From: Escherichia phage ukendt
DNA: 64,000 nt
Strand: one strand, 5' to 3'
Sequence record: NC_052661.1
Below, in pieces: positions 16,882 to 47,421 of this stretch. The notes under the pieces are model-generated. The model worked only from the letters and a program-made list of their open reading frames with translations, was not told the DNA's origin and ran no database searches. Made by a program: the position numbers and the translations under genes. Each line of letters opens with the position of its first letter. Position 1 is the stretch's first letter.

Positions 16882-16910
16882 AGTATACACTAATATAAAA
16901 TTTTTGTCAA
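16882..16910 (-). promoter_or_regulatory. sigma70-like promoter TTGACA-N17-TATACT (minus strand)
   Basis: read on reverse complement: aTTGACAaaaattttatattagtgTATACT. Confidence 0.45.
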
Positions 16911-16911
16911 T

Positions 16912-16934
16912 AAAAAAGGGAGCAATAAGCTCCC
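16912..16934 (-). terminator. intrinsic terminator (minus strand)
   Basis: hairpin GGGAGC-aataa-GCTCCC followed by U6 on minus-strand transcript. Confidence 0.55.
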
Positions 16935-16940
16935 TGATTA

Positions 16941-17900
16941 TTAGATTCCAATGATAGTTGCTGCTCGTTTATCCTTGGATCTGGTGTTTGCTCTACTACG
17001 TGACAAACCTCCGCAAGATTCACAACGAATGATATCGAAAGAACTTACCGCAGTGTGGTATTGTTTACCAGTAACAACGTGAACGTGATCACTGCCACAA
17101 CGAGAACAACGGACCTTCTCATCTGGGTAATAAGCGGATAAGTTAGGATGCTGCGGAATCCACGGAAGGATTTTCATATACAAATCACGGAGTGAAACAA
17201 CATCACCATCATTGTAAATCTGCATACGTTCAAAAGCATCACGATCACCTTCACAACATGCTTTCCATAAAGGGAACCCCTCGTTATCCAGTTTTTCACT
17301 TTCTGTTTCGAAATATGCTCCCATTTCTTTAAGGGAGTTGGAAGGAAGTGCAAATTGTTTCTTAGCTGCCTTCAATGTATCAACAACTACATAATTAGAA
17401 GGAGGAGCCATATCGTGATATGCAAATCGTTGGTTAATGTATGCACGGTCAAACTTATATCCGTTGTGTGCCACAACTACATCTGCCTCATTCAGAAGGT
17501 TCCAAAGATCTTGGCAAAGCTCCCAATCATCTGTATGATCAATATCAAAAAGAGGATAAGAAGACAAGTTCTTACCTTCTACCTCACCAGTATACAGGTC
17601 AGCAGAAGAGTAAGATAACAAATAACCCCTACGAATTACTTGATCTGGAGAAATGAAGGCTTTGAATCGACGGAAAGTATATGCAATCTCTGGTGCAGTT
17701 TCAACATCAATAATTTTAATAACTGGTTGTTTCTTTTTAACTGGCTCTTGTTTACTTGCTCCAAATCGTGCAAGGAAATCGTTCACTGTGCTTTTTCTTG
17801 TTGGACTACCTAAAACAATTGCTGCAATATTGCGAGAAGACATACCCTCTGCACTCATACTAAGGATATCTGCTTTCTGCTCTTCTGTTAATCTGCTCAC
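16941..17900 (-). CDS. DEDD-family 3'-5' exonuclease with N-terminal HTH and C-terminal zinc ribbon
   Basis: Exo I IIDVETAP, Exo II VVAHNGYKFD, Exo III YNDGDVVSLRDLY; N-terminal HTH-like LSMSAEGMSSRNIAAIV; CSRCGSDH...CESCGG. Confidence 0.55.
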   Translation of the reverse strand: MSRLTEEQKADILSMSAEGMSSRNIAAIVLGSPTRKSTVNDFLARFGASKQEPVKKKQPVIKIIDVETAPEIAYTFRRFKAFISPDQVIRRGYLLSYSSADLYTGEVEGKNLSSYPLFDIDHTDDWELCQDLWNLLNEADVVVAHNGYKFDRAYINQRFAYHDMAPPSNYVVVDTLKAAKKQFALPSNSLKEMGAYFETESEKLDNEGFPLWKACCEGDRDAFERMQIYNDGDVVSLRDLYMKILPWIPQHPNLSAYYPDEKVRCSRCGSDHVHVVTGKQYHTAVSSFDIIRCESCGGLSRSRANTRSKDKRAATIIGI

Positions 17901-18586
17901 TCTGCCTCCTGTTGCGAGATGTATGACTGAAGCATACTCTCAAATGTTGTATCGTCATTATCCCAGCGTTTCATGTATACCAACTGGAAAATTGTTTCTA
18001 TCCATTCATCTGTTGTCATATGGACTTCTTCTCCATCCCAAGAAGTAAAATTAACACCATCTGGGAACCATGAGTAGTAAGTATCTTTAACTGTTTGGAA
18101 AAGTTCTGCTTGAGTTTTACAAGCTGAAAGAAGATTAAAACAAGTAATATCTCCGAACTTAATATCAAAATCTTGATAAGGTCGGATACTATCTGTTTTA
18201 TCTCCCATTAGCATCTGATATGCTAACCAGTAACTGCCCCAACCTTTAACTTCTTTCTTTTTACCTTTATCTACGATCCATATATCGCCAATAGACTCGT
18301 CAATAAGAATTATATCTGGATTTTTAAATACTCCATCCTCTTTGTAGAAATTAAAAAGGATACTAGGAGTATGTAAACTATCTTTATCTATAGACACTAC
18401 GATATAAGAAAATTTACCCGTCCTTTTATAATCTTTATAACCTTGGAAACCATACTTCTCTAACTCATCATCAGCTTCTATTACAGTAACAACATCACCA
18501 TTGTGGAACTCCACAAGATAATCTTTGGTTTCTGAAAGCTGAAGTGGTTTGATATCTAATCGTTCAGATTTATATTCTACAGGCAT
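17897..18586 (-). CDS. hypothetical nuclease-like protein (229 aa from ATG; frame stays open a further 147 codons upstream)
   Basis: ORF from track; IDKDS, ILIDESIGD, LMGDKTDSI acidic motifs; see finding on the start-less extension. Confidence 0.5.
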   Translation of the reverse strand: MPVEYKSERLDIKPLQLSETKDYLVEFHNGDVVTVIEADDELEKYGFQGYKDYKRTGKFSYIVVSIDKDSLHTPSILFNFYKEDGVFKNPDIILIDESIGDIWIVDKGKKKEVKGWGSYWLAYQMLMGDKTDSIRPYQDFDIKFGDITCFNLLSACKTQAELFQTVKDTYYSWFPDGVNFTSWDGEEVHMTTDEWIETIFQLVYMKRWDNDDTTFESMLQSYISQQEAE

Positions 18587-19027
18587 TTTGAAGGCGTGTC
18601 TGAAAGTTTTTCCTACGCCAATAACTCCGCAATATTTTTCTAAACGTAGATGTTTTAGAATACCTAAGACTTTTGTTTTAGCTGCTTGGAAGGTGTGTCC
18701 GATATCTTCTGGCGGGTATTGCTTATCAATGATTTCGAACTCTTCCTTTGTGAAGGGACGTTTGTTTTTGGAGGCTCTTTCTGCATTTGTATCTCCTAGC
18801 CAACCTCCAATTTTAGTCTTGCTTTTACCCCAAAACTCTGTCTTATTTTTAAATTCCTTTTGAGCACCTGAAGGGATGTGCTTCGCAATGATTGTTCTTT
18901 TCTCTAATGCAGACGCTGCTTGGAAAGCGATCTGATCATAATCAATTGCAGCTATTGTTTCTTCGTTGACATATAAATGAAGATCTTCAGGTTTAATTAA
19001 AATATAACCGCTAATATTTCCCCCTAA
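18587..19027 (-). other. in-frame open extension (147 codons) with no ATG/GTG/TTG
   Basis: hand translation LGGNISGYILIKPEDLHLYVNEETIAAIDYDQ...YCGVIGVGKTFRHAFK runs without a stop into the ATG at 18586; bounded upstream by the in-frame TAA of ORF 19028..19237. Confidence 0.5.
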
Positions 19028-19237
19028 TTATTCATCGTCATCCTCTGTTGAGAATGTTTTAGTATACGGACATTGACGACTTTTCGGGATTGCTATAACT
19101 TCATCTTGGTTAGCGTTAGAATAGTAACAATATTTTGTATTGCCATTAACTTCAGAATCAGACAAGATTAAAGTAATTTGACCTGCTGCTACTGTGAAAC
19201 TAAAAGCTAAAAGAATGACTGTTAGAATCTTTTTCAT
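19028..19237 (-). CDS. small secreted/lipoprotein-like protein (69 aa)
   Basis: signal-peptide-like MKKILTVILLAFSFTVAAGQ; SD GGAGG; directly downstream of a terminator. Confidence 0.55.
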   Translation of the reverse strand: MKKILTVILLAFSFTVAAGQITLILSDSEVNGNTKYCYYSNANQDEVIAIPKSRQCPYTKTFSTEDDDE

Positions 19238-19247
19238 AACGCCTCCT

Positions 19248-19276
19248 AAAAAGCCTACCTCATTAAGTAGGTAGGC
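19248..19276 (-). terminator. intrinsic terminator (minus strand)
   Basis: 8-bp stem GCCTACCT/AGGTAGGC, 8-nt loop, followed by UUUUUA on minus-strand transcript. Confidence 0.55.
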
Positions 19277-19309
19277 ATAGTATCATAACTAATCCCGCAA
19301 GTCAAGAAC

Positions 19310-28363: not shown

Positions 28364-28542
28364 CTTGCTCTACGAGCCTCTTATGAAGCTTATGTTATAG
28401 GCTATACTATTGCTACCTGTTTAAGCAAGGTTTTTGCACACAGAAAATAATTTTTAATAAAACTCTTGACTTTTGTGTTCGAAGTATGCTACCCTAGAAA
28501 TCTATTAACGAGCGAAGCGAGTTAAGGTTTTAGGTTGTTGAT

Positions 28543-28656
28543 GTAGTACTCTGTACTCAAGTACTGTACTCCGTACTAGATTAATAATTATTAAATATTA
28601 ATAATAAATAATTATTAGATCTAACAAACAGGTACAGTGTATCAGAACTGGTACGT
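28543..28656. repeat. GTAC(T) direct-repeat cluster flanking a 40-bp A/T-only tract (candidate origin or regulatory hub)
   Basis: five GTACT copies in tagtactctgtactcaagtactgtactccgtactag, then a pure A/T tract, then further GTAC motifs (ggtacagtg...ggtacgtacag). Confidence 0.5.
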
Positions 28657-28772: not shown

Positions 28773-28958
28773 ATGATTAGTGAGAATCCGTGCAAATGGC
28801 ATCATGTGCCTATTAAAGATTGTATGTCTTGTAATCCACGTTCTATTTATAACATTGCATCTTATGATGATGACAATGTGTTAGACGATGATGAAGGCTG
28901 GGAGGATTTAGATTGGACTGGTTATGAAACCAAAAAGGATAAAATTATTCCTAGTTGA
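28773..28958 (+). CDS. hypothetical Cys-containing protein (61 aa)
   Basis: SD GGAGG before ATG; first plus-strand gene. Confidence 0.5.
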   Translation: MISENPCKWHHVPIKDCMSCNPRSIYNIASYDDDNVLDDDEGWEDLDWTGYETKKDKIIPS

Positions 28959-28995
28959 CTTAAGATATCCTTCGTGCTAAACTAGAAATGAGGAG

Positions 28996-29511: not shown

Positions 29512-29541
29512 TTGACAAACGTATCCTTCATATGTTAGGAT
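29512..29541 (+). promoter_or_regulatory. promoter TTGACA-N18-TAGGAT with extended TG
   Basis: ctaTTGACAaacgtatccttcatatgtTAGGAT; upstream of the tRNA array leader. Confidence 0.4.
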
Positions 29542-29751: not shown

Positions 29752-29826
29752 GGCCCTGTAGCTCAATGGGAGAGCTGTCGGCTCATAACCGATAGGTAGC
29801 TGGATCGAAACCAGCCAGGGCCACCA
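29752..29826 (+). tRNA. tRNA-Met/Ile2 (anticodon CAT)
   Basis: manual cloverleaf: acceptor GGCCCTG/CAGGGCC, D-stem GCTC/GAGC, anticodon loop CTCATAA, encoded CCA; acceptor resembles tRNA-Ile2. Confidence 0.75.
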
Positions 29827-29828
29827 AC

Positions 29829-29903
29829 GTCTTTATGGTGTAATGGATAGCACAGGAGTCTTCTAAACTCTTAGTCAAGGTTCGATTCCTTGTAAAGACA
29901 CCA
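29829..29903 (+). tRNA. tRNA-Arg (anticodon TCT)
   Basis: acceptor GTCTTTA/TAAAGAC, anticodon loop CTTCTAA, T-arm CAAGG-TTCGATT-CCTTG, CCA. Confidence 0.75.
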
Positions 29904-30099
29904 GAACATTTTAACATGAATTAGCTCAAGTGATTTGAACCCACTACTGATCATGGTGGCAGAGAATGAGGTAAGTATGTCAGACATTATAAACAAAGGC
30001 CACGGTTATATTAGAAGACATAAATGCTCGAAGAGCACCGTTCGCTGAGAACGGGGGTTGGTGGAGTCACCATTCATGGTAAAATGTTTTAAAAAACTA

Positions 30100-30128
30100 T
30101 TGACAACTAACACTATTTTATGTTAGAT
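30100..30128 (+). promoter_or_regulatory. promoter TTGACA-N18-TAGATT with extended TG
   Basis: ctaTTGACAactaacactattttatgtTAGATT; upstream of the tRNA-Ser genes. Confidence 0.45.
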
Positions 30129-30137
30129 TATAAGCAT

Positions 30138-30228
30138 GGAAGGGCAAATCGACGTGGCGACGAAAACGGTCTTGAAAACCGCCGAGCTTGAAAGAGCCTT
30201 GGGAGTTCGACTCTCCCTCCTTCCGCCA
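30138..30228 (+). tRNA. tRNA-Ser (anticodon TGA), class II
   Basis: anticodon arm ACGGT-CTTGAAA-ACCGC and long variable arm as in E. coli tRNA-Ser(UGA); 3' end TCCTTCC-G-CCA; D-region irregular. Confidence 0.6.
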
Positions 30229-30232
30229 GATT

Positions 30233-30318
30233 GGTAGATTGGTGAAATGGTAGCCACGACAGTTTGCTAAACTGTAGTCGGAAACGGCGTGTAGGTTCGA
30301 GTCCTACATCTACCGCCA
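30233..30318 (+). tRNA. tRNA-Ser (anticodon GCT), class II
   Basis: acceptor GGTAGAT/ATCTACC, anticodon arm ACAGT-TTGCTAA-ACTGT, long variable arm, G73, CCA. Confidence 0.75.
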
Positions 30319-30448
30319 AGTTCTTTTTAATGTAGCTTACTTTAGCAGAGTAAATCTTCGGCAAGTGGCGGTAACCACTTTACCGATACCTCATAGTTAG
30401 TGGTGTGAACACTGGCTATTTTAAAAAGAATTTAAATATTAGTATTTA

Positions 30449-30536
30449 GGTGAGTTAATTCCGTAGGGGTAGCGGGGCAGACTGTAAATCTGTTATCATT
30501 GCGATTCGGGTGGTTCGACTCCATCACTCACCACCA
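30449..30536 (+). tRNA. tRNA-Tyr (anticodon GTA), class II
   Basis: acceptor GGTGAGT/ACTCACC, anticodon arm GCAGA-CTGTAAA-TCTGT (as E. coli tRNA-Tyr), long variable arm, A73, CCA. Confidence 0.7.
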
Positions 30537-30542
30537 AATTAA

Positions 30543-30628
30543 GATGAGTTGGCTGAATGGTTTAAGCGGCGGACTGTTAATCCGTGTTCGAAAGAACAAT
30601 ATAGGTTCGAATCCTATACTCATCGCCA
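30543..30628 (+). tRNA. class-II (Ser-type) tRNA with anticodon GTT (Asn codons)
   Basis: acceptor GATGAGT/ACTCATC, 3-bp D-stem GCT/AGC, anticodon arm GCGGA-CTGTTAA-TCCGT, 15-nt variable hairpin GTTC-GAAA-GAAC, T-arm ATAGG-TTCGAAT-CCTAT, G73, CCA. Confidence 0.6.
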
Positions 30629-30635
30629 GAATTAT

Positions 30636-30712
30636 GGACTTGTAGAGTTAAGGTAAACCCCCAGTCGCCAATAGGCTTCTGGAATTGCAGGTATCGAATC
30701 CTGCCGAGTCCC
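30636..30712 (+). pseudogene. degenerate tRNA-like element
   Basis: acceptor-like GGACTTG/CGAGTCC and T-arm-like GCAGG-TATCGAAT-CCTGC, but no canonical anticodon arm and no CCA. Confidence 0.25.
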
Positions 30713-30718
30713 AGCATT

Positions 30719-30793
30719 GCTCCTATAGTATAATGGCTATTACAACGGTTTTGTAATCCGTGGATCTCTGTTCGATTCAGTGTGGGAGCACCA
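30719..30793 (+). tRNA. tRNA-Thr (anticodon TGT)
   Basis: acceptor GCTCCTA/TGGGAGC, anticodon loop TTTGTAA, T-loop TTCGATT, CCA; T.T mismatches in anticodon and T stems. Confidence 0.5.
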
Positions 30794-31065
30794 ACACAAC
30801 ATTAAGAGCACTGTGATTGATCGTCGTATCCTGTGCACAAGGTCTGCTCGAAAGACAGTGTTCTTAGTATTGTGTTGATCACAAAAAGAGTCACCCGAAA
30901 CTTGACCGGAGTAGGGTTGGATGGGGCAAAATGAGAAGCGGCTCTCCCATCGACAGCAACGAAGAATAATATTTGACTTTGGTTTTGTATTATTTAAGTT
31001 AGCTTACCGAACGTAGGGCTAGTCACCCAACGGGATACTCGTCACTGTCCCAATCAATAAAAGTC

Positions 31066-31095
31066 TTGACAACAAATAGTAAAATGTAGTATAGT
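31066..31095 (+). promoter_or_regulatory. promoter TTGACA-N18-TATAGT
   Basis: cTTGACAacaaatagtaaaatgtagTATAGT, ~12 nt before tRNA-Gly. Confidence 0.45.
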
Positions 31096-31106
31096 AAAGA
31101 TATAGG

Positions 31107-31180
31107 GCGTTCTTGGTGTAGCGGTAGCATTCCGTCCTTCCAAGTCGGCGGCACGAGTTCGATCCTCGTAGAACGCTCCA
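31107..31180 (+). tRNA. tRNA-Gly (anticodon TCC)
   Basis: acceptor GCGTTCT/AGAACGC, anticodon loop CTTCCAA, T-arm ACGAG-TTCGATC-CTCGT, CCA. Confidence 0.6.
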
Positions 31181-31277
31181 AATTATTTAATAAAGGGTTG
31201 CCAGAAAACTTTCTCTTTTACTCATGGTTTTCTCCTTCTCTCACACTTCTTCTGGTTGCCCTTCATTAAATGATTTT

Positions 31278-31353
31278 TGGTTTGTAGTGTAGTCCGGTAG
31301 CACACGACACTTTGACTGTCGTAGGTTTGGTTCAAATCCAGACAGACCAGCCA
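31278..31353 (+). tRNA. tRNA-Gln (anticodon TTG)
   Basis: U1-A72 acceptor TGGTTTG/CAGACCA (as in E. coli tRNA-Gln), anticodon arm CGACA-CTTTGAC-TGTCG, G73, CCA. Confidence 0.7.
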
Positions 31354-31358
31354 TATAA

Positions 31359-31435
31359 CGGAATTTAGCTCAGTTTGGTAGAGTGTACGCTTTGGGAGCG
31401 TATTGTCGCAGGTTCGAATCCTGCAATTCCGACCA
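31359..31435 (+). tRNA. tRNA-Pro (anticodon TGG)
   Basis: acceptor CGGAATT/AATTCCG, D-arm TAGCTCAGTTTGGTAGAG, anticodon arm TACGC-TTTGGGA-GCGTA, T-arm GCAGG-TTCGAAT-CCTGC, CCA. Confidence 0.8.
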
Positions 31436-31441
31436 ATTAAA

Positions 31442-31515
31442 TGTTTCGTAGTTCAATGGTAGAACCCACGACTGATAATCGTGAGACACAAGTTCGATTC
31501 TTGTCGAAACAACCA
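31442..31515 (+). tRNA. tRNA-Ile (anticodon GAT)
   Basis: acceptor TGTTTCG/CGAAACA, anticodon arm CACGA-CTGATAA-TCGTG, T-arm ACAAG-TTCGATT-CTTGT, CCA. Confidence 0.75.
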
Positions 31516-31517
31516 GT

Positions 31518-31587
31518 TTCCCGTTAGACTTACAGGATAAGAGTTCCACAGCTTATTGTGATGCTGGTTCGAATCCAGCACGGGATA
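31518..31587 (+). pseudogene. degenerate tRNA-like element
   Basis: good T-arm GCTGG-TTCGAAT-CCAGC and D-arm-like region, but short aberrant anticodon arm, 1-72 mismatch and no CCA. Confidence 0.25.
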
Positions 31588-31593
31588 CATAAT

Positions 31594-31672
31594 AGCGGGA
31601 TAGAGGAGTCTGGTCGTCCTCGCCAGTTTCATATGCTGGAGATCATTGGTTCAAATCCGATTCCCGCCTCCA
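31594..31672 (+). tRNA. tRNA-Met (anticodon CAT), 1-72 mismatched
   Basis: acceptor AGCGGGA/TCCCGCC (A1.C72), D-stem GAGG/CCTC, anticodon arm CCAGT-TTCATAT-GCTGG, T-loop TTCAAAT, CCA. Confidence 0.6.
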
Positions 31673-31787: not shown

Positions 31788-31810
31788 AGCCTCCTTATTG
31801 GAGGCTTTTT
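31788..31810 (+). terminator. intrinsic terminator closing the tRNA array
   Basis: AGCCTCC-ttatt-GGAGGCT followed by TTTTT. Confidence 0.7.
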
Positions 31811-31829: not shown

Positions 31830-31858
31830 TTGACTTATTATTTTTTATATGTTAAGAT
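31830..31858 (+). promoter_or_regulatory. promoter TTGACT-N17-TAAGAT
   Basis: TTGACTtattattttttatatgtTAAGAT, ~20 nt before SD of gene 31880. Confidence 0.5.
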
Positions 31859-33174: not shown

Positions 33175-35250
33175 GTGGCAAAGAAAAAGGCAGCAGGTAG
33201 TTTAGCTGGAGTAGATATTGAAGTAAAGGCTCAACCAGGTAAACAGACTCTTGCAATGGATTTAATGCCAGAAGTTATGATTTATGGTGGTGCCGCTGGA
33301 TGTGTTTCTGCTGAAACGGAATATCTTACAAAAGATGGTTGGAGACAGATTAGTGAATATTCGGGAGAAGATATTTACCAATACAACCCTAAGAATAAGC
33401 GTTTAGAATTGGTAACACCTTACTTTGTAGAATACGATTTAAATGGAGATAATCTATACAGAATAACAAATGGTGTAGGATTGTTCCAAGAACTTAGTAT
33501 GGAACACCGTTTTGTATTCTATAAGAAAAAGAAATCAAAGAAACATTTCGAGATTCTTGTAGGAGATCTTATTGCATTACAGCAAATAGGAAAACCCCTG
33601 CAAGGTTATGTAGAAAATCCATTCGGTAAACGTGTTCCTTTTAACATACCTGGTAAAAAGAGCACTTACTTAAAAATACACGAGGTTATTTCAACAGATG
33701 ATAAGAAATATTGTTTTGAGACTCCAAGCAGCTATATTGTCTTTAGACGTGGCGATCACTGCTTCGTTACTGGGAATAGCGGCAAGTCTCGTCTGCTATT
33801 GCTGAAAGCTTTAAAATACGCCTACAAAGACCCTTTGTTTGGTGGAATACTTTTCCGTAAGAACACCACTGCTCACCGTAAACCAGGTGGTCTGTTTACA
33901 GAAGCAAAACGTTTGTATCTTCCTTTACAACCGCACGTAAAAGAAAGTACAATGGATATCATTTTTGAAGCCACTGGCGGTGGAACCCTCAAATTTGACC
34001 ATTTGGAAAACGATAACGTAACCGCAGAAACAAACCATCAGGGTACACAGTATTCAATGGTAGGTTTTGACGAGTTAACCCACTTCACACAGTATGAAAT
34101 GCTCTATCTTCTGGGACGTATGCGTTCAGAATCAGAAACAAGCTTCATGTTGTGCACATGTAACCCCGATGCAGATAGTTGGGTTTTGAATTGGGTACTA
34201 CCTTATCTCGATGAGGGCGGTTATCCTAGAGAAGATATGTGTGGTAAACAAAAATATTTCATCATTGTTAACGATGAACCTGTTTTTGCTGACACACCTG
34301 AAGAACTGAAAGAAAAATATCCAGAAAACTGTTTCATGGAAAACCCTAATACAGGGGAGACAGTTATTATTGAACCACAAACTTTCGTATTTATCGGTGG
34401 GACAATATTTGATAACCCAGAATTGATTAGGCTTAACCCTAATTATTTAGCACAGCTTAAATCACAAACAGCAATCAAAAGAGCACAACTCTTGGACGGC
34501 TGTTGGTTTGCACGTATACAGAAAGAGTCTTTCTTCCAACGTGAATGGTTGCATAAGATATCTTATAAAGATGTTCCTAATAATCTTAAACTAATGCGAG
34601 CATGGGATAAAGCTGTTTCAGTTCCTACAGAAACTTATCGTTATCCAGACTATACAACATCTGTCAAAATGGGTAAAGACCAAGATGGTAATATCTACAT
34701 CTTTGGTGACTATGATTATGATGCTGTGGATGAGAAAAGTAAAATTTTCGGAAGGTTTCGAAGATTACCTGGGGAAAGGGATAACCTGATTCTAAATCAA
34801 TGTAAGATTGATGGACCAGAAGTTACAGTAGTTCTTCCTAAAGACCCATCTGGTGCTGGGACAATAGAATATACAGAGTCTGCAAAGAAACTTATTCTAG
34901 AGGGTTTTGTTGTTAAACCGGATGCTATGCCAGGTAACAAGAAAAAGCTTCAGCGTTTTATGCCTTTTAGTAGTGCGTGTCAAAACGGTTTTGTTTATAT
35001 TGTTGAAGATTCTTTCCCTAATGTGGAAACTTTAACCCACTTTTATAAAGAATTGGAATCTTTCAATGGTGAAAGATCTACAGCCACTATTAAAGATGAC
35101 ATTCCCGATGCTGCTGCTTCTTGTTTCAATACTCTGTCAAAAGAGAATACTTTCAAAGCAGTAGCTATCCCTGCAACAACAAATGCTCCTACAGGATACA
35201 GTAGAATGAACAGCGGATTTCACCAACCGTATAGTGTCCGTAAAAGATAA
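33175..35250 (+). CDS. terL: terminase large subunit (intein-containing precursor)
   Basis: GTG start with SD; N-extein ...IYGGAAG and C-extein SGKSRLL... rebuild Walker A GAAGSGKS; 691-aa precursor directly upstream of portal. Confidence 0.8.
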   Translation: MAKKKAAGSLAGVDIEVKAQPGKQTLAMDLMPEVMIYGGAAGCVSAETEYLTKDGWRQISEYSGEDIYQYNPKNKRLELVTPYFVEYDLNGDNLYRITNGVGLFQELSMEHRFVFYKKKKSKKHFEILVGDLIALQQIGKPLQGYVENPFGKRVPFNIPGKKSTYLKIHEVISTDDKKYCFETPSSYIVFRRGDHCFVTGNSGKSRLLLLKALKYAYKDPLFGGILFRKNTTAHRKPGGLFTEAKRLYLPLQPHVKESTMDIIFEATGGGTLKFDHLENDNVTAETNHQGTQYSMVGFDELTHFTQYEMLYLLGRMRSESETSFMLCTCNPDADSWVLNWVLPYLDEGGYPREDMCGKQKYFIIVNDEPVFADTPEELKEKYPENCFMENPNTGETVIIEPQTFVFIGGTIFDNPELIRLNPNYLAQLKSQTAIKRAQLLDGCWFARIQKESFFQREWLHKISYKDVPNNLKLMRAWDKAVSVPTETYRYPDYTTSVKMGKDQDGNIYIFGDYDYDAVDEKSKIFGRFRRLPGERDNLILNQCKIDGPEVTVVLPKDPSGAGTIEYTESAKKLILEGFVVKPDAMPGNKKKLQRFMPFSSACQNGFVYIVEDSFPNVETLTHFYKELESFNGERSTATIKDDIPDAAASCFNTLSKENTFKAVAIPATTNAPTGYSRMNSGFHQPYSVRKR
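33301..33777 (+). mobile_element. mini-intein (159 aa) in the terminase Walker A motif
   Basis: starts CVSAETEYLTKDGW (block A: Cys1, ...ET.YLT.DG), ends ...HCFVTGN followed by +1 Ser; removal restores the P-loop; no homing-endonuclease domain. Confidence 0.65.
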
Positions 35251-35253
35251 TTG

Positions 35254-35282
35254 TTGACAAAAGTCACTTTAAAGTGTATTAT
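35254..35282 (+). promoter_or_regulatory. promoter TTGACA-N17-TATTAT with extended TG
   Basis: gtTTGACAaaagtcactttaaagtgTATTAT after terL stop. Confidence 0.45.
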
Positions 35283-35351
35283 AACTAGATAGGTGAGGTT
35301 GTATATAATACAGCCTTGCCTTAACGATTTTATACCTGACTGGAGGAACAA

Positions 35352-36917
35352 GTGTCAACAGGAAAAAGAACGTACACTAAAAAGTCAGAATACTGGGACA
35401 AAGGTGCTGCAAATAAAGCTGCTCTCTCTCCAACAAAAGAGGCAGAGAAAGAGAAAACGTTACTCCTGTCACCTGAAATAGGAACGATCGGATTAAACTC
35501 AATCAAAGCATTTACGAATTTCATGCAACCTTATGAGACTCGTTTCCCAGAATGTATTCGCACTTTTAAAGAGATGGGTGAAGACCCTGATGTAGCTACT
35601 GCTCTTGACGCTACATATATCTTTGTAGATAGAGCATTCTTTGATTTCAAGATAAAATACAATGTAAACTCGGCAAAGTCAAGAAAAGCTGCTAAGTTTA
35701 TTGATTACATGTTACGCAATATGCAAGCCCCTCTACGTCAATATGTTAGATCACTTTTGACATATAAGCAATATGGTTTTGCATTCGCAGAGAAAGTTTA
35801 TGAGTTGGATGAAGATCCTAAAAGTCCTTACTTTGGGTATTGGCGATTGACCAAACTGGCTTTTAGACCACAAGACACTCTTCACATGGCTCAACCTTTT
35901 ACATATTCGGCAGACGGACGTTCTATTCTATCTGTTAACCAGAATATCACCAATACGATGTTAGCTCCAGGTAATACAACTTTAGAAACTGGTATTAAAG
36001 AAATTCCTTTCAGTAAAGTTTTATTTGTTGGTAGTAACATTACAGAGAATAACCCACTAGGAGTTAGTCCGCTTTTAGCTGTATATCGTAGCTGGCGTGA
36101 AAAATCTCTTATTCAGGAATTTGAGGTTATTGGGGTATCTAAAGATTTAGGTGGTATGCCAGTTCTTAAGGTTCCAAGTGACATTCTAAACAGAGCATCT
36201 TTAGATCCTGCTGGGGATGAAGCACAATCTCTTCGAGTTCTCCAAGCCAACATCGCTAACCTGCACTCTGGTGAGCAAGCCTACATGGTATTGCCTTCAG
36301 ACGTTTATGAAGGCACAGTGATGCGTCAATACGATCTTGTATTCCAAGGTGTTGATGGCACGGGTAAACAGTTTGACACTCAAGCACTAATCAAACAACG
36401 CAAGCTAGATATTTATAACCGCTTTGGTGCGGGTGTGTTGATTATGGGTGATGGTGATGCAGGAAGTTTTGCGCTTTCTGACAACAAACAAACACTATTG
36501 TCTCATTTTATTGAGCGAGATGTAGATATTGTTGTAGAAGCTATAAACTCTCAACTGATCCCTCAAACACTACGACTAAACAATATCTTCCTTTCTGATG
36601 AAGATATGCCTAAGTTTGTCAGTGGTGAAATGGGTGATCCTGATATTGAAGTAAATGCTAAAGCTATTCAGCAGTTGGTAGCCTCTGGTGCAATACCTTT
36701 AACACCAGAAGTTATTAACGAGTTCCTTGAAAAAATTGGTTTTGAATATCGTATCCCTGACGATATTGTTGCCAATAAAGAGAAATTCTTTGAATTCATG
36801 GATAACTACATGCCTGACAAAACTTCACGATCAGGAGATGGTTTAGCTACAGCGGGAACTGGAACGTCTGATACTGTTTCTGCTTTAGATCCTTCAGCAC
36901 AAAACCTGTCGAATTAA
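35352..36917 (+). CDS. portal protein (putative)
   Basis: 521 aa, GTG start with SD GGAGGA, directly after terL; assigned by position and size. Confidence 0.55.
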   Translation: MSTGKRTYTKKSEYWDKGAANKAALSPTKEAEKEKTLLLSPEIGTIGLNSIKAFTNFMQPYETRFPECIRTFKEMGEDPDVATALDATYIFVDRAFFDFKIKYNVNSAKSRKAAKFIDYMLRNMQAPLRQYVRSLLTYKQYGFAFAEKVYELDEDPKSPYFGYWRLTKLAFRPQDTLHMAQPFTYSADGRSILSVNQNITNTMLAPGNTTLETGIKEIPFSKVLFVGSNITENNPLGVSPLLAVYRSWREKSLIQEFEVIGVSKDLGGMPVLKVPSDILNRASLDPAGDEAQSLRVLQANIANLHSGEQAYMVLPSDVYEGTVMRQYDLVFQGVDGTGKQFDTQALIKQRKLDIYNRFGAGVLIMGDGDAGSFALSDNKQTLLSHFIERDVDIVVEAINSQLIPQTLRLNNIFLSDEDMPKFVSGEMGDPDIEVNAKAIQQLVASGAIPLTPEVINEFLEKIGFEYRIPDDIVANKEKFFEFMDNYMPDKTSRSGDGLATAGTGTSDTVSALDPSAQNLSN

Positions 36918-36945: not shown

Positions 36946-36974
36946 TTGACAAAACAACAAATATCCTGTAGACT
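36946..36974 (+). promoter_or_regulatory. promoter TTGACA-N17-TAGACT
   Basis: ctaTTGACAaaacaacaaatatcctgTAGACT. Confidence 0.45.
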
Positions 36975-37010
36975 AAGATTTATGGGATATCTGTTTTTAA
37001 GAGGTTTCAA

Positions 37011-40049: not shown

Positions 40050-40069
40050 TAGAACTCTGTTAAGATTAG

Positions 40070-40097
40070 AGGCTCGTCCGTGATGGGCGAGCCTTTT
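40070..40097 (+). terminator. intrinsic terminator after capsid gene
   Basis: AGGCTCGTCC-gtgat-GGGCGAGCCT followed by TTTTCTGTTT. Confidence 0.55.
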
Positions 40098-40133
40098 CTG
40101 TTTACAATAAGAGTTTACAACGAGGAGATTGAT

Positions 40134-40478
40134 ATGTCAAACCCAGAATTGAAACGTTACTTTAGTTATCACGAAATGATTCGTGATTTCGAATCGCTTT
40201 CACCACTGATCGATGCTGATAAAACATTAGTATCTGCGCCACCAATGTCTTTCTATCTGAAAGATGGTCGTATTGCATTAGGTGGAAACTTCATTCACTT
40301 CCTCACGCGTTTGAGAGAAGAAACAGGTATTCTTGTGCATCCTTTTGCAAGTGAAGAACACATGGGTTACTATCTTGTAAGTTACGAAGACTATGCACCT
40401 GTAAAAATCAAAGAAGAAGTTTTAAAAGTAGAAGCGGTAGACACTCCAGCTAAAAAACGTTCCCTTCGTAAAAAATAA
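40134..40478 (+). CDS. hypothetical head/neck protein (115 aa)
   Basis: start at ATG with SD GAGGAG; the track's upstream ATG lies inside the terminator hairpin. Confidence 0.45.
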   Translation: MSNPELKRYFSYHEMIRDFESLSPLIDADKTLVSAPPMSFYLKDGRIALGGNFIHFLTRLREETGILVHPFASEEHMGYYLVSYEDYAPVKIKEEVLKVEAVDTPAKKRSLRKK

Positions 40479-44071: not shown

Positions 44072-44551
44072 ATGGATAAAATGCTTACTGGCGTAATGGC
44101 CTACGACCCATCTCAAGTTATCCTTTCATTAGGTGGTTGGGAACCGTGGGGTTTTGCGGCTGATACTAAAATCGTTATTGCTAAATCTAACGATATTATC
44201 AACCCTTATTCAGGGACTGATGGGGACGTTTCATTAGCTTTGAGTCGTAACCGTTTGGGAACACTCACAATGTCTTTGCAACGCACATCTCCAGCTAACG
44301 AAGTACTTGCAACATATGCACAAACAATGTATTCTACTCGTCAAGTAGCATTCAGTGTTTACTTGGAAGACCCACGTGGCTATTACATTAGCACGATTGG
44401 ATGGATTCAAAGTCAGCCTGAAGATACTATTGGCGAAATGATTACAGAGAACCAATGGGTTATTGGTCTTAAAGATGCAAGCCTTCTGCGTAATGAAGTT
44501 GGTGTAGGTTTGAGCACCCTTAACTCAATCTCTGCTCTGACAATTCAATAA
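44072..44551 (+). CDS. tail tube protein
   Basis: 159 aa after sheath, followed by a strong terminator. Confidence 0.6.
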   Translation: MDKMLTGVMAYDPSQVILSLGGWEPWGFAADTKIVIAKSNDIINPYSGTDGDVSLALSRNRLGTLTMSLQRTSPANEVLATYAQTMYSTRQVAFSVYLEDPRGYYISTIGWIQSQPEDTIGEMITENQWVIGLKDASLLRNEVGVGLSTLNSISALTIQ

Positions 44552-44557
44552 TAAATA

Positions 44558-44578
44558 AAGGGCAGAAATGCCCTTTTT
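44558..44578 (+). terminator. intrinsic terminator after tube gene
   Basis: AAGGGCA-gaaa-TGCCCTT followed by TTTTT. Confidence 0.65.
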
Positions 44579-44596
44579 ATCATTAGAGAGGAAAAT

Positions 44597-45079
44597 ATGT
44601 CACAAGAACAAGATAACACAATTCAAAAATATGCTCGACCAGAAGAAGTAGTTGAGATTCCATTAGATGGAAACAGATCTGTTACTTTCCGTATTATGAA
44701 ATGGAGTCCATCTAAAGTGTTCGACAGGATTCCAGAATTAGGTAGTGTTCTGGTTGTTCCTATGACTATGTATAGCACAGCAACAATGTCCGCAGACGAA
44801 GACCTTGAGTCACGTATTGCTATGGCACTGATCCAACTTTTTGCAGGTTTGGAAGAAAAGAATTTAACTGTCTTTTTGCGTAAAATTTTAGATGAGGTTT
44901 ATACCCAAGACGGTTATAACGTTGCAGAAAATTTTGATGAATTATTTATGGCTCACCCAGAACTAGTGTTAGATCTTACTGCTAAAGTTCTGGAGGTAAA
45001 CTACGGCCCTTTTTTCAAACGAGGTTTCGGAAAACTGTTCACACAGCTTCAGGCGATGACGAGTTTAGCAGCAAATTAA
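44597..45079 (+). CDS. tail assembly chaperone (putative)
   Basis: 160 aa immediately upstream of tape measure gene. Confidence 0.45.
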   Translation: MSQEQDNTIQKYARPEEVVEIPLDGNRSVTFRIMKWSPSKVFDRIPELGSVLVVPMTMYSTATMSADEDLESRIAMALIQLFAGLEEKNLTVFLRKILDEVYTQDGYNVAENFDELFMAHPELVLDLTAKVLEVNYGPFFKRGFGKLFTQLQAMTSLAAN

Positions 45080-45126
45080 CACCTGCGATTGAACATGCTA
45101 TCGACACAGCAACGAAAACCCTTACT

Positions 45127-45345
45127 TTGAAGTGGTATGAGGTTATTCTTTGCAAAGTCGTTAAAGATACCTCGGAAACACTGAAAACATTAGATAACTA
45201 CGGTGTAGATTATCTTTTAAAACTATATGAGTATTTAACATACGAAGAGTATGTTGAAGCCATGTATGTTAAAGACACTTCAATAAAGAGAAAACATCAA
45301 AACCAGACAAATAAAATGTCAGATTTGTTTAAGAAACTTGTTTAA
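45127..45345 (+). CDS. possible second chaperone ORF / frameshift extension
   Basis: -1 frame relative to 44597..45079, open from 45070; TTG start without SD; no canonical slippery heptamer found. Confidence 0.3.
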   Translation: MKWYEVILCKVVKDTSETLKTLDNYGVDYLLKLYEYLTYEEYVEAMYVKDTSIKRKHQNQTNKMSDLFKKLV

Positions 45346-45365
45346 TCCAACACGAGGAACATACT

Positions 45366-47354
45366 TTGTTAGAAATTAACGCCTCCAGAATTAGTAACGT
45401 GGTTACGTTTAAGGTGGACAAGAACAGTCTCAAGGAAGCAAAAGATGCCGTGTTGAGTGTTCAGAAGTTTGCAAATAAAATGCAACCCACTATGAACATG
45501 ACCAAGTTTAGACAACAAATGAAAGAGATTGAACGTGAACTTAAGAAAGCTCAAACTCAAAGCCAAAAACCTATGCGAGCACCTACTCCCGCTGGAGCGG
45601 GTGCTCCTGTAGGTGGTTCTGGTAGACCTAGAACTCCTAAAACCCCACAAGGTAGAGAAGAAGAAAAAGCTCGTAAAGCGGCTGAACGCGAAGCTAAAGC
45701 AGCAGCACGTAGGGAAGACTTAGGTAATCTTCGTTTACAGAACTTTAACTATCGAGCAAGAGCATTTAGTAAAGCCAGTCCTGGAGCTATGCAAGAAGCT
45801 AGAGACGTTATGGGTAAAGCTGTAGAGCAATACAAAAAAGGTGAAATAACTCTTCAACGTATGAACCAAGCTCTTGCTCACCAGTTAGATGCTTTACGCA
45901 GATCTCATCGTGAAAAGAATGCTGAAATAGAAGATGAGGTTCGCGGTCGTCGCCGTATTCGTAGAGAGCTAGAAGCAGAAGCTAAAATGCGTATACGTAT
46001 GCGAAATCGTGAACTTAGGGATATAGAACGAAATCGTAAGCGTGAATTGGCACAACAAAAACGTGATCGTGATCGTAGATATGGACAACTAAAAGAAGGT
46101 GCAGCAGGTCTTAATCCACGCATGATTGCATCCTCTTTGATTGGTGCTGGGCTGTTTGCAGGTGGTTCTGTAGTTGGTAACACGTTGATGAATACTAACG
46201 AAAGAATTAAACTTGTAAGCCGTGGTGCTGAAAACGTTCAGACAAACGCCAACGCTATTTTGGCAATGACAGCTTGGGGTGAACAGAACGGTGTAGACTC
46301 TGCAAATATTATTAAATCAATAGATAATATTAAAGACGTTCGTGAACGTCTTGGTAATACAGTTTTAGCTGCAAAGTGGAATGAGAAAGAAGGGAAGTGG
46401 AAAGGCGGTGATAATGGCATAACTGACATTATGAACTTGTTTGGATGGAATCCAGAACAGCTTAAACCTTTACAGAACGATCCTTTAGCTTTTATTCAGG
46501 CTACTGTTAATGAAGGTGAGCGTCGAGGTATGAACTCTGCTCAAATAGGGCGACTTCTTGAAAACCTTGGTGATGACCTTATGCACTACCAACGTATGTT
46601 TAGTAAAAACGGCGAAGGGTATAATGAAGTATTGAAAATGCTTCAAAGAACAGGTGCAACATTAACTCAAGAACAAATAGATGCTTCTAAAGAGTTTACT
46701 CGTTTTGCTGCAACAGTTCAGCTTGTAGGTCAAGGTATGCAGAACCACTTCTTAGAGGGTTTTGTGAAAGCCTTACCTAAAGATGATTCTTGGTTGGATA
46801 ACGTTAAAGTGCTAGATCAGTTTGCCAAAGATTTAGGTGAAGAACTCGGTAAGACAACAGTTCAATTAGGAGGTTTTGCTAAAGAATTGGGAGATGGTTT
46901 CGGATCTTTTACCAATTGGCTTAAAGAAACATTCCCAGATACATTCGGAGACAACACAGATCCTAATAAATCTATGGCACAAAAAGCATACGAGGCAACG
47001 CAAAGTGGAGACAGCAATCCTGTAGCAGATTGGTTGTACAATTTAACAGGTATTGATACACAAGACATTGGTCGTATGTGGAGAGGAGAACAAACAAGGA
47101 CACGTGCTTTTGGATTTGGTAATCCTCTTGAAGATTTACGTGAATCAGCCTACACACCTAACGTAAGTTTGGCTCGTAATCAACCTGTTGTTGAGAATAC
47201 GGTAGCAATACCAAGTGATCTTATCAAAGTTACGATCAGCCCTTCTTCAGAGTTTGGAAATATTCTTGATGCAAGAATTCAAAATAGCGGAAATAGCATT
47301 TTCCAACGTTTGTCTCTTTCAACTCTAAGTGGACAATCTAACACTGGTGGTTAA
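45366..47354 (+). CDS. tail tape measure protein
   Basis: 662 aa, TTG start; highly charged helical region (RRRIRRELEAEAKMRIRMRNRELRDIERNRKRELAQQKRDRDRR), Gly-rich segments; position after chaperones. Confidence 0.65.
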   Translation: MLEINASRISNVVTFKVDKNSLKEAKDAVLSVQKFANKMQPTMNMTKFRQQMKEIERELKKAQTQSQKPMRAPTPAGAGAPVGGSGRPRTPKTPQGREEEKARKAAEREAKAAARREDLGNLRLQNFNYRARAFSKASPGAMQEARDVMGKAVEQYKKGEITLQRMNQALAHQLDALRRSHREKNAEIEDEVRGRRRIRRELEAEAKMRIRMRNRELRDIERNRKRELAQQKRDRDRRYGQLKEGAAGLNPRMIASSLIGAGLFAGGSVVGNTLMNTNERIKLVSRGAENVQTNANAILAMTAWGEQNGVDSANIIKSIDNIKDVRERLGNTVLAAKWNEKEGKWKGGDNGITDIMNLFGWNPEQLKPLQNDPLAFIQATVNEGERRGMNSAQIGRLLENLGDDLMHYQRMFSKNGEGYNEVLKMLQRTGATLTQEQIDASKEFTRFAATVQLVGQGMQNHFLEGFVKALPKDDSWLDNVKVLDQFAKDLGEELGKTTVQLGGFAKELGDGFGSFTNWLKETFPDTFGDNTDPNKSMAQKAYEATQSGDSNPVADWLYNLTGIDTQDIGRMWRGEQTRTRAFGFGNPLEDLRESAYTPNVSLARNQPVVENTVAIPSDLIKVTISPSSEFGNILDARIQNSGNSIFQRLSLSTLSGQSNTGG

Positions 47355-47361
47355 TAAAATA

Positions 47362-47383
47362 CCTCGCTTCGGCGGGGTTTTTT
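47362..47383 (+). terminator. intrinsic terminator after tape measure gene
   Basis: CCTCGC-ttcg-GCGGGG (UUCG tetraloop) followed by TTTTTT. Confidence 0.7.
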
Positions 47384-47391
47384 CGTTTCCC

Positions 47392-47421
47392 TTGACACGA
47401 AGTTTCTATATGTGTTACAAT
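47392..47421 (+). promoter_or_regulatory. promoter TTGACA-N18-TACAAT
   Basis: cTTGACAcgaagtttctatatgtgtTACAAT before baseplate genes. Confidence 0.5.

What the first reader, a model, noticed from the sequence alone, without database searches (positions are those of the whole stretch)
16882..47421. One sigma70-type promoter family (TTGACA-N17/18-TAnnnT, often with extended TG) across early, tRNA and late units
At least nine promoter-like sites share an almost perfect -35 TTGACA, frequently in the context cTATTGACAa, with a 17-18-nt spacer and a TA-rich -10 (TAGATT, TAGGAT, TATAGT, TAAGAT, TATTAT, TAGACT, TATACT, TACAAT), several preceded by TGn. They lie upstream of tRNA blocks, spanin, portal, head, neck and baseplate operons, and on the minus strand near 16882. 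Late structural operons seem to use host-like promoters rather than a phage-specific late motif, so timing may rely on terminators, antitermination or DNA state.
Basis: seen in the sequence. Interest (0 to 1): 0.4.

Follow-up and report, generated by a model that had tools for sequence, protein, structure and literature searches.

The report
Host-type promoters in a phAPEC8-like phage
The window is part of a phAPEC8-like E. coli phage, and the flagged sites are real, evolutionarily conserved promoters of the ordinary host (sigma-70) type placed in front of its tRNA, lysis, head and baseplate gene blocks, a layout already described for related phages.

Summary
The window is a Phapecoctavirus (phAPEC8-like E. 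coli myovirus, 99.5-99.7% identical to TSP7_1 and ESCO13). TTGAC[AT]-N16-18-TAnnnT occurs 27 times. Thirteen sites lie in the roughly 9% of sequence that is intergenic, and all 13 point at the downstream gene. Dinucleotide shuffles of the same intergenic DNA give 0.29 +/- 0.52 sites, and the antisense strand has none. Matches inside genes are at chance level and strand-symmetric.

The three late-region promoters (terminase>portal, portal>protease, tape measure>baseplate) keep an invariant TTGACA and a correctly spaced TAnnnT in five to six lineages of Stephanstirmvirinae, although the surrounding intergenic DNA has diverged. Pfam finds no phage RNA polymerase, sigma factor or AsiA/MotA-type protein in a near-identical complete genome. 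No T4-type late motif precedes the late genes.

"One family" is too simple: the true early region, outside the window, has a distinct stereotyped class. No "neck" promoter exists, and timing remains untested. The same conclusion was drawn for phage rV5 in 2013, and a Klebsiella relative (FBKp34) already has promoters annotated at two of these junctions. This is a new member of a known kind, of low interest.

The parts
13793..13820 (-). Promoter TTGACT-16-TATAAT, upstream of gene 13771-13328 and after the thymidylate synthase gene. It is followed by a leader stem-loop, GGGAGGA..TCCTCCC.
   Evidence: An orthologous TTGACT-17-TAGTAT is present in Justusliebigvirus alia, with a leader hairpin of different sequence.
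16882..16910 (-). Promoter TTGACA-17-TATACT, immediately downstream of terminator 16935-16917(-).
   Evidence: It is not conserved in Justusliebigvirus alia, where only the terminator is present.
16917..16935 (-). Intrinsic terminator (7-bp stem, T-run) preceding promoter 16910, forming a terminator-promoter cassette.
19277..19305 (-). Promoter TTGACT-17-(TGa)TACTAT. A terminator hairpin (19276-19253) starts right after the -10.
   Evidence: Both the promoter and the hairpin are conserved in alia.
28466..28495 (+). Promoter-like site TTGACT-18-(TGc)TACCCT, first site of the rightward domain, followed by the box CGAGCGAAGCGAGT at 28509-28522. It belongs to the TACCCT subclass.
   Evidence: The same cassette occurs near the other divergent junction of the genome and in alia.
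28955..28983 (+). Promoter TTGACT-17-(TGc)TAAACT, upstream of small ORFs.
   Evidence: The orthologue in alia is TTGACT-17-(TGa)TAAGAT.
29512..29541 (+). Promoter TTGACA-18-(TGt)TAGGAT, upstream of tRNA-Met and tRNA-Arg (29752-29903).
30100..30129 (+). Promoter TTGACA-18-(TGt)TAGATT, upstream of the tRNA-Ser/Asn/Thr block.
   Evidence: TTGACA and TTTTATGTTAGATT are conserved in alia.
30973..31000 (+). Weak candidate TTGACT-16-TAAGTT within the tRNA region.
   Evidence: Pattern match only, no conservation test.
31066..31095 (+). Promoter TTGACA-18-TATAGT. tRNA-Gly starts 12 nt after the -10, and this site heads the Gly/Gln/Pro/Ile/Met block.
31788..31806 (+). Intrinsic terminator closing the tRNA cluster, directly upstream of promoter 31830.
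   Evidence: The hairpin is conserved in alia.
31830..31858 (+). Promoter TTGACT-17-(TGt)TAAGAT, heading the unit with gene 31880, the Rz-like spanins and the terminase.
   Evidence: In alia the -35 is weaker (TTTACA) and the -10 is TGtTATCCT.
35254..35282 (+). Late-region promoter TTGACA-17-TATTAT, between terminase (ends 35250) and portal (starts 35352).
   Evidence: TTGACAAAA is invariant and TAnnnT is kept at the right spacing in 6 lineages (A1). FBKp34 annotates a promoter at this junction.
35291..35321 (+). Strong stem-loop (-18.2 kcal/mol) starting a few nt after the predicted start of the portal transcript.
   Evidence: A hairpin sits at the same place in all 6 lineages with unrelated sequences (z from -1.0 to -4.8). 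The ASO2A record annotates a 'terminator' at this junction.
36946..36974 (+). Late-region promoter TTGACA-17-TAGACT, between portal and the XkdF-type protease, scaffold and capsid block.
   Evidence: TTGACA is invariant and the -10 reads TAGACT, TAGAAT or TAAAAT in 6 lineages (A2). FBKp34 annotates a promoter here.
47361..47378 (+). Intrinsic terminator after the tape measure gene, directly upstream of promoter 47392.
   Evidence: A terminator is present, with changed sequence, in relatives (A3).
47392..47421 (+). Late-region promoter TTGACA-18-(TGt)TACAAT, heading the baseplate/tail-fibre block (47481 onward). It is followed by the leader hairpin 47431-47451.
   Evidence: TTGACA and TGnTAnnAT are invariant in 5 lineages (A3). 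The hairpin is shown.
40112..40140 (-). NOT a member: an antisense TTGACA-17-TAAACT match inside gene 40080-40478. It is the only match near the capsid>neck junction.
   Evidence: It is consistent with the coding-region chance background.

Best explanation
**What the sites are.** They are genuine promoters read by the host E. coli RNA polymerase carrying sigma-70.

**How they are built.**
- Each has a consensus or near-consensus -35 (TTGACA or TTGACT).
- The spacer is 16-18 nt, 17-18 in all but two sites.
- The -10 is imperfect (TAnnnT, 3-6 of 6 matches to TATAAT).
- In about half the sites a TG at -15/-14 (extended -10) props up the weak -10.

**How they are arranged.**
- They sit in the short gaps between operons, always pointing at the next gene.
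- Several sit right after the intrinsic terminator that closes the previous operon. The genome is therefore cut into insulated, separately promoted units: three tRNA blocks, the lysis-terminase unit, portal, the head block, the baseplate/fibre block, and several nucleotide-metabolism units on the other strand.

**Shown here:** the motif, its enrichment, its orientation, its positional conservation across genera, and the absence of a recognisable phage polymerase or sigma factor.

**Inferred, not shown:** that RNA polymerase actually starts there, and that late genes are expressed from these promoters at late times without a phage-specific specificity factor.
For: - **Enrichment:** 13 sense-strand intergenic sites against 0.29 +/- 0.52 in dinucleotide shuffles, and 0 antisense.
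- **Background:** the coding-region background is strand-symmetric, 44 against 42.
- **Whole genome:** in the near-identical genome DIJ07P1, 31 of 61 sites are intergenic and sense, in the 9% of the genome that is intergenic. A different genus (Justusliebigvirus alia) has the same layout: 35 intergenic sites, with late ones at the same three junctions.
- **Footprints:** -35 and -10 positions are invariant while flanks diverge, at terminase>portal, portal>protease and tape measure>baseplate (A1-A3). Sites 13820, 19305, 28955 and 30100 are also conserved.
- **Cassettes:** terminator-promoter pairs are seen.
- **Geometry:** the tRNA-Gly 5' end lies 12 nt after the -10 of site 31066. Stem-loops are phase-locked a few nt after the predicted starts.
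- **No alternative machinery found:** Pfam finds no RNA polymerase, sigma, AsiA or MotA family in 253 ORFs. No TATAAATA lies upstream of late genes.
- **Independent annotation:** promoters are annotated at two of the same junctions in Klebsiella phage FBKp34.
- **Literature:** the same picture was reported for rV5, with 33 sigma-70-like promoters spread over the genome, 11 of them with an extended -10 (PMC3606486).
Against: - I found no transcription start mapping for any Phapecoctavirus in the searchable literature.
- Site 16910 is not conserved in Justusliebigvirus.
- Sites 30973 and 28466 have poor -10 hexamers.
- Most of the many small early ORFs have no Pfam match, so a novel polymerase-modifying or specificity factor cannot be excluded. 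Three Pfam family lists were truncated at 25 rows.
- Consensus -35 promoters in front of structural genes would by themselves predict early expression. Some further control must therefore exist, and it is not identified.
Confidence: 0.78

Rival explanations
1. The sites are functional sigma-70 promoters, but late structural genes are gated at a step after promoter recognition. The gate would be promoter-proximal stem-loops acting as attenuators that need a phage antiterminator, or a phage repressor or operator overlapping the -10. The promoters would then be necessary but not sufficient for late timing.
For: - A strong hairpin immediately follows the terminase>portal promoter in all six lineages, with unrelated sequences. 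ASO2A annotators called the element at this junction a terminator.
- At 19305 the promoter overlaps a canonical terminator.
- At portal>protease, a 45-nt block from the spacer to about +25 is about 92% conserved, against about 75% for the neighbouring genes. Inverted repeats bracket the -10 in three lineages with different arm sequences (read directly from A2).
Against: - The hairpin at 35291-35321 is not followed by an adjacent T-run in the window.
- 5' stem-loops are equally typical of the early class, where a simpler reading is mRNA stabilisation.
- The portal>protease and baseplate leaders are not significantly structured (z from about 0 to -0.7).
- Short AT-rich inverted repeats arise easily by chance.
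- No antiterminator or repressor gene was identified.
Confidence: 0.15
2. Late genes are really transcribed through a phage-specific mechanism that uses another element, for example -10-only or T4-late-like motifs read with an unrecognised phage factor. The sigma-70-like sites in the late region would then serve only early or middle or low-level expression.
For: - The rV5 authors found a TggTAaAAtA motif upstream of late genes and an Srd-like anti-sigma candidate (PMC3606486).
- Most small early ORFs here have no Pfam match.
Against: - No TATAAATA or T[GA]GTA[AT]AATA motif lies in late intergenic regions of the window.
- Every sizeable late intergenic gap is occupied by a terminator and/or one of the sigma-70-type sites, which leaves little room for another element.
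- The rV5 motif reads like an extended -10 (TGnTAnAAT) of the same promoter type (my inference).
- The late sites are the best-conserved ones.
Confidence: 0.06
3. The matches are chance occurrences in AT-rich intergenic DNA and have no function.
For: - The generic promoter scan is not enriched over shuffles.
- The window is 39% G+C, so TA-rich hexamers are common.
Against: - 13 observed against 0.29 expected in composition-matched shuffles of the same intergenic DNA, with complete strand bias.
- Conservation of exactly the hexamer positions across genera.
Confidence: 0.01

Closest known systems
Predicted sigma-70-like promoters of phage rV5 (Vequintavirinae; Kropinski et al. 2013, PMC3606486)
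   Same: - A large E. coli myovirus without its own RNA polymerase, with four strand-switching transcription blocks.
- Thirty-three consensus-like sigma-70 promoters spread over early and late regions, 11 of them with an extended -10.
- The authors concluded that T4-style reprogramming of the polymerase may not occur.
   Different: - It belongs to a different subfamily.
- The sites are not orthologous as far as I tested.
- rV5 additionally has a proposed TggTAaAAtA late motif and an Srd-like protein. Neither was found here (motif), and Srd was not specifically tested.
Promoters annotated in Klebsiella phage vB_KpM_FBKp34 (Stephanstirmvirinae, MW394390)
   Same: - Promoter features are annotated at the same two junctions, terminase>portal and portal>protease.
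- They align with window sites 35254 and 36946, with an invariant TTGACA.
   Different: - The flanking genes are only about 67% identical.
- The -10 hexamers and leader sequences differ.
- The annotation is in silico only.
Certrevirus early promoter AAAA-N3-TGTTGAC-N19-TATAAT (phage CB7, PMC7344957)
   Same: - A sigma-70-like motif with an A-rich upstream element.
- It is repeated 13-21 times and concentrated in the block of small early ORFs, like the early class I found outside the window.
   Different: - It is reported only for early and middle regions, not in front of structural genes.
- The consensus details differ.
Classical strong sigma-70 promoters of coliphage T5, and T4 early promoters with associated stem-loops (from my own knowledge, not checked here)
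   Same: - Host holoenzyme is used.
- The hexamers are near consensus, with AT-rich upstream DNA.
- Promoter and stem-loop cassettes are repeated in the early region.
   Different: - T4 switches to MotA/AsiA middle promoters and gp55/gp33 late promoters (TATAAATA).
- No such motif or protein family was detected here.

Membership tests
E. coli sigma-70 (-35/-10) promoter | A -35 hexamer close to TTGACA | tested here: met
   Exact TTGACA at 7 sites and TTGACT at 6 sites.
E. coli sigma-70 (-35/-10) promoter | A -10 hexamer TAnnnT at a 16-18 nt spacing | tested here: met
   All 13 sites. The spacer is 17 or 18 in 11 sites and 16 in 2. Matches to TATAAT range from 3 to 6 of 6.
E. coli sigma-70 (-35/-10) promoter | Located upstream of, and co-oriented with, transcription units, and more frequent than chance | tested here: met
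   13 sense and 0 antisense sites in intergenic DNA, against 0.29 expected. The coding background is symmetric.
E. coli sigma-70 (-35/-10) promoter | Hexamers under purifying selection relative to flanking non-coding DNA | tested here: met
   Alignments A1-A3 and pairwise alignments with alia. The exception is 16910, which is absent in alia.
E. coli sigma-70 (-35/-10) promoter | Transcription initiates 6-8 nt downstream of the -10, with sigma-70 holoenzyme | not testable with these tools
   No mapped 5' ends for this genus were found in the literature searches.
Extended -10 (TGn) promoters | TG at -15/-14, one base upstream of the -10 hexamer | tested here: met
   Met at 19305, 28466, 28955, 29512, 30100, 31830 and 47392. 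Not met at 13820, 16910, 31066, 35254 and 36946, where TG abuts the hexamer or is absent.
T4-type late promoters (gp55/gp33, TATAAATA) | TATAAATA at -10, with no -35, upstream of late genes | tested here: not met
   Seven TATAAATA in the window, none in a gap upstream of a late operon.
T4-type late promoters (gp55/gp33, TATAAATA) | A phage-encoded late sigma and co-activator | tested here: not met
   No sigma-like family in the Pfam scans of 253 ORFs of the near-identical genome. This is a weak negative: three lists were truncated, and I did not check whether gp55 and gp33 are represented in Pfam.
Phage-RNA-polymerase promoters (T7-like or N4-like) | A phage-encoded RNA polymerase | tested here: not met
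   No RNA polymerase family was found in any of the Pfam scans.

The most novel reading that the evidence does not exclude
The sigma-70-type promoters in front of the late operons may be competent from the start of infection and held back by conserved promoter-proximal elements.
- One candidate is the stem-loop right after the terminase>portal promoter. It is kept in six lineages with no sequence similarity, that is, maintained by compensatory change.
- The other is the hyper-conserved block with inverted repeats around the -10 of the portal>protease promoter.

These would act as attenuators or operators released by an unidentified phage antiterminator or anti-repressor. That would give late timing without any change of sigma factor.
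Probability: 0.15. Interest if true: 0.5.

Novelty: new member of a known kind. Interest (0 to 1): 0.2.

Why it matters
**What it adds.** It gives a clean, conservation-backed promoter and terminator map for the central 64 kb of a phage genus (Phapecoctavirus) that is widely isolated for therapy and biocontrol. Public records for this genus annotate almost no promoters here. ESCO13 annotates none and ASO2A none in this region.

**The open question it sharpens.** Large rV5/phAPEC8-like phages have no polymerase or sigma factor of their own, and they carry consensus host promoters even in front of head and baseplate genes. How they time late gene expression is unknown.

**Why it is not surprising.** It changes no concept. 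The same inference was published for rV5 in 2013.

Tried and rejected
1. **Generic promoter scan.** It was not enriched over shuffles, so it is useless as evidence. I replaced it with an exact pattern, an intergenic versus coding comparison and a strand test.
2. **T4-like late motif TATAAATA and the rV5 motif T[GA]GTA[AT]AATA.** No relevant hits.
3. **Annotated promoters in close relatives.**
   - ESCO13 has only ribosome-binding sites.
   - ASO2A annotates three promoters in its first 50 kb, all in its early region, and none in the stretch matching window 28-48 kb. Its paper reports nine in total.
4. **Literature searches for transcriptomics or start-site mapping in Phapecoctavirus, Stephanstirmvirinae or phi92.** Nothing experimental was found, and one search was unproductive.
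5. **Pfam scan of all ORFs of a near-identical genome for polymerase, sigma or anti-sigma families.** Negative.
6. **A T7-like reading of the early-class box (TCACATAGGGCGG resembles the T7 promoter end CACTATAGGG).** Rejected, because no phage RNA polymerase is encoded.
7. **A 'neck' promoter at the capsid>neck junction.** Only an antisense coding match exists there.
8. **Leader structure at the portal>protease and baseplate promoters.** Not significant.

Full report
**Identity and layout.**
- The window is 99.5-99.7% identical over its structural region to Dompiswa phage TSP7_1, Escherichia phage ESCO13 and many other members of Phapecoctavirus (Stephanstirmvirinae). These are phAPEC8-like E. 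coli myoviruses of about 150 kb.
- Genes on 1-28290 run on the minus strand. They cover nucleotide metabolism, dTDP-rhamnose synthesis, ribonucleotide reductase, ligases and exonucleases.
- A 480-nt divergent gap follows.
- From about 28.7 kb everything runs on the plus strand: small ORFs, ten to eleven tRNAs (29752-31672), spanins, terminase (33175-35250), portal (35352-36917), protease/scaffold/capsid, tail, baseplate and fibres.

**Checking the observation.**
- The exact pattern TTGACA-N16-19-TANNNT occurs 15 times, against 5.4 +/- 2.2 in shuffles of the whole window.
- The excess is entirely intergenic. With TTGAC[AT]-N16-18-TAnnnT there are 27 sites. Thirteen lie in gaps between genes and all 13 point at the downstream gene.
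- Dinucleotide-preserving shuffles of the same 5.7 kb of intergenic DNA give 0.29 +/- 0.52 sites (largest 3 in 1000). The antisense strand of the same DNA has none.
- With relaxed criteria the coding DNA holds 44 sense and 42 antisense matches, a symmetric chance background. Intergenic DNA holds 15 sense and 1 antisense.
- The loose consensus scan offered by the tool is not enriched, so only the high-scoring intergenic sites carry signal.
- In six of the seven TTGACA sites a TG lies exactly 15 nt after the -35 (read). This gives either a true extended -10 (spacer 18) or a TG abutting the hexamer (spacer 17).

**Anatomy.**
- Several sites form terminator-promoter cassettes:
  - terminator 16935-16917(-), then promoter 16910;
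  - terminator 31788-31806, then promoter 31830;
  - terminator 47361-47378, then promoter 47392.
- At 19305(-) the order is reversed. A canonical terminator hairpin begins right after the -10.
- The tRNA cluster is cut into three promoter-headed blocks. tRNA-Gly begins 12 nt after the -10 of site 31066.
- Site 31830 heads the unit containing two Rz-like spanins and the terminase.
- There is no plus-strand promoter at the capsid>neck junction.

**Whole-genome context.**
- I assembled the near-identical unannotated genome DIJ07P1 (OZ035743.1). Its blocks that align to the window are 94-98.5% identical.
- It has five strand domains in the linear record, comparable to the four transcriptional units described for rV5.
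- Sixty-one pattern sites occur genome-wide. Thirty-one are intergenic and sense, in the 9% of the genome that is intergenic. One is intergenic and antisense, and 29 are coding.
- Thirteen sites are packed into 78.7-84 kb, in the block of small ORFs that is evidently the true early region and lies outside the window. These form a distinct stereotyped class:
  - a 16-nt spacer;
  - often TGaTAAGAT;
  - an A-rich tract upstream;
  - a conserved start region, gTATCACATAGGGCGG, that folds into a GC-rich stem-loop (for example GCGGGAAtagTTCCCGC) at about +5 to +28.
- The window's sites use 17-18-nt spacers and lack that box.
- A third subclass (TTGACTTTT...ATGCTACCCTA followed by CGAGCGAAGCGAGT) occurs at window 28466 and again near the other divergent junction. 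It is also present in a different genus.
- 'One family' is therefore an over-simplification. These are at least three variants of one host-type promoter.

**Conservation.**
- For the three late-region sites I aligned the intergenic regions from relatives whose flanking genes are 67-80% identical: phiWec186 and phiWec190, phi92 and ECGD1 (Justusliebigvirus), Klebsiella phages KP13-26, 05F01 and FBKp34, and PsgM04F.
- In all of them TTGACA is invariant and a TAnnnT hexamer is kept at the right distance, while spacer and flanks diverge:
  - TATTAT, TACAAT, TAAAGT or TAATAT at terminase>portal;
  - TAGACT, TAGAAT or TAAAAT at portal>protease;
  - TGnTAnnAT at tape measure>baseplate.
- The FBKp34 record annotates promoters at two of these junctions.
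- A second complete genome from another genus (Justusliebigvirus alia) shows the same distribution. It has 35 intergenic sites, three late ones at the same junctions, the early cluster with its stem-loop, and tRNA promoters.
- That genome also has orthologues of window sites 13820, 19305, 28955, 30100 and, more weakly, 31830. Site 16910 is not conserved there.

**Other transcription machinery.**
- Pfam scans of 253 ORFs of DIJ07P1 found no RNA polymerase, sigma factor, AsiA, MotA or similar family.
- This negative is weak for small novel proteins, and three family lists were truncated at 25 rows.
- TATAAATA and the rV5 'late' motif are absent from late intergenic gaps. Each sizeable late gap is already filled by a terminator and/or one of these promoters.

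**Mechanism.**
- The best-supported reading is that these are ordinary sigma-70 holoenzyme promoters. A consensus -35, and often a TG element, compensate for an imperfect -10.
- They are arranged with terminators to make insulated operons.
- That the late operons are actually expressed from them, and when, is inference.
- Consensus -35 elements in front of head and baseplate genes argue against a T4-like strategy of blocking -35 recognition (inference from established T4 biology, my own knowledge). They also imply that some other layer sets timing.
- A lead for that layer is a strong stem-loop that follows the terminase>portal promoter in all six lineages, with unrelated sequences (-12.6 to -18.2 kcal/mol).
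- Leaders of intergenic promoters are more structured than those of chance coding sites (median -9.7 against -5.4 kcal/mol, p = 0.018) or random 45-mers (p = 2e-5).
- The plain reading is 5' stem-loops that stabilise mRNA. An attenuator role is the more novel alternative.
- At portal>protease, a block from the spacer to about +25 is much better conserved than the neighbouring genes, and inverted repeats bracket the -10. The leader itself is not significantly structured. This remains unexplained.

**Comparison with what is known.**
- The rV5 paper reported 33 sigma-70-like promoters spread across early and late regions, 11 with an extended -10. It drew the same inference that T4-style reprogramming may not occur (PMC3606486).
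- The Certrevirus paper describes a comparable early and middle promoter (PMC7344957).
- For Phapecoctavirus itself, the ASO2A paper counts nine promoters (PMC10612097). The three I saw annotated in that record lie in its early region, and none is annotated in the stretch matching window 28-48 kb.
- I found no experimental start-site mapping for this group.

**Verdict.** The feature is real and well supported, but it is a new member of a known kind. Interest is low (0.2).

Noticed in passing
Outside the window: L005:28764-33964 (DIJ07P1 78.7-84 kb), and alia 81-89 kb: There is a dense cluster of 13 or more stereotyped early promoters. Each has an A-rich tract, TTGACA, a 16-nt spacer, (TGa)TAAGAT or TAAACT, and the box gTATCACATAGGGCGG. 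Their transcripts would begin with a GC-rich stem-loop such as GCGGGAAtagTTCCCGC. The loop and stem sequences vary between copies while the pairing is kept.
   Followed up: partly
window 28466-28522; also L005:19281 (minus strand) and alia 72834 (minus strand): A conserved cassette, TTGACTTTT-N-ATGCTACCCTA-N12-CGAGCGAAGCGAGT, with an unusual TACCCT -10. It occurs near both divergent strand-switch junctions of the genome and in another genus. Its function is unknown. It could be a special promoter class or an origin-associated transcript.
   Followed up: partly
window 28543-28620: Five GTACT repeats spaced 7-8 nt apart (gtaGTACTctGTACTcaaGTACTGTACTccGTACTag) are followed directly by a roughly 40-nt pure A+T stretch, inside the 480-nt divergent gap. 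GTAC occurs 9 times in 351 nt, against about 1 per kb in the window. It looks like iterons plus an unwinding element, or a regulator binding array.
   Followed up: partly
window 30449-30533 and about 30140-30232: Rfam finds an eleventh tRNA (39 bits) that ARAGORN missed. It sits where ASO2A annotates tRNA-Tyr. The stretch just before tRNA-Ser(GCT) ends in a T-arm/acceptor/CCA-like sequence, at the place where ASO2A has tRNA-Ser(TGA). It may be a decayed tRNA.
   Followed up: partly
window 40068-40096: A strong terminator hairpin (13 pairs) lies right after the major capsid gene, and its loop contains the start codon region of the next gene. This is a likely partial terminator or translational coupling device that sets the ratio of capsid to neck proteins.
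   Followed up: no
window 19253-19305 (minus strand): A promoter and an intrinsic terminator overlap, with the hairpin starting directly after the -10. Upstream read-through would terminate, while transcripts started here would lack the full 5' arm of the hairpin. The arrangement is conserved in Justusliebigvirus alia.
   Followed up: partly
window 36962-37000: A block from the promoter spacer to about +25 (AAATATCCTGTAGACTAAGATTTATGGGATATTTG) is about 92% identical across genera whose neighbouring genes are about 75% identical. In relatives the arms AAATATCC and GGATATTT are a perfect 8-bp inverted repeat around the -10 (7 of 8 in the window). 05F01 and FBKp34 have different inverted repeats at the same place.
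   Followed up: partly
window 36975-36990 and 47422-47437: Both late promoters carry TATGGGA exactly 6 nt after the -10 hexamer. Related start regions read ATAGGG or TAAGGGA in other promoters and lineages, which suggests a preferred initial transcribed sequence.
   Followed up: no
window 58915-59330: A 416-nt stretch with no ORF follows the large tail-fibre gene. No promoter of the family is found in it, and its content is unexplained.
   Followed up: no
Outside the window (DIJ07P1 ORFs in alignments A4, A5, A7): The genome encodes TerD/TerC/TelA-type proteins, a Sir2 protein, an Acb2/Tad1 hairpin-domain protein (anti-defence sponge family), a NADAR domain and a T7 gene 1.1-like protein.
   Followed up: no
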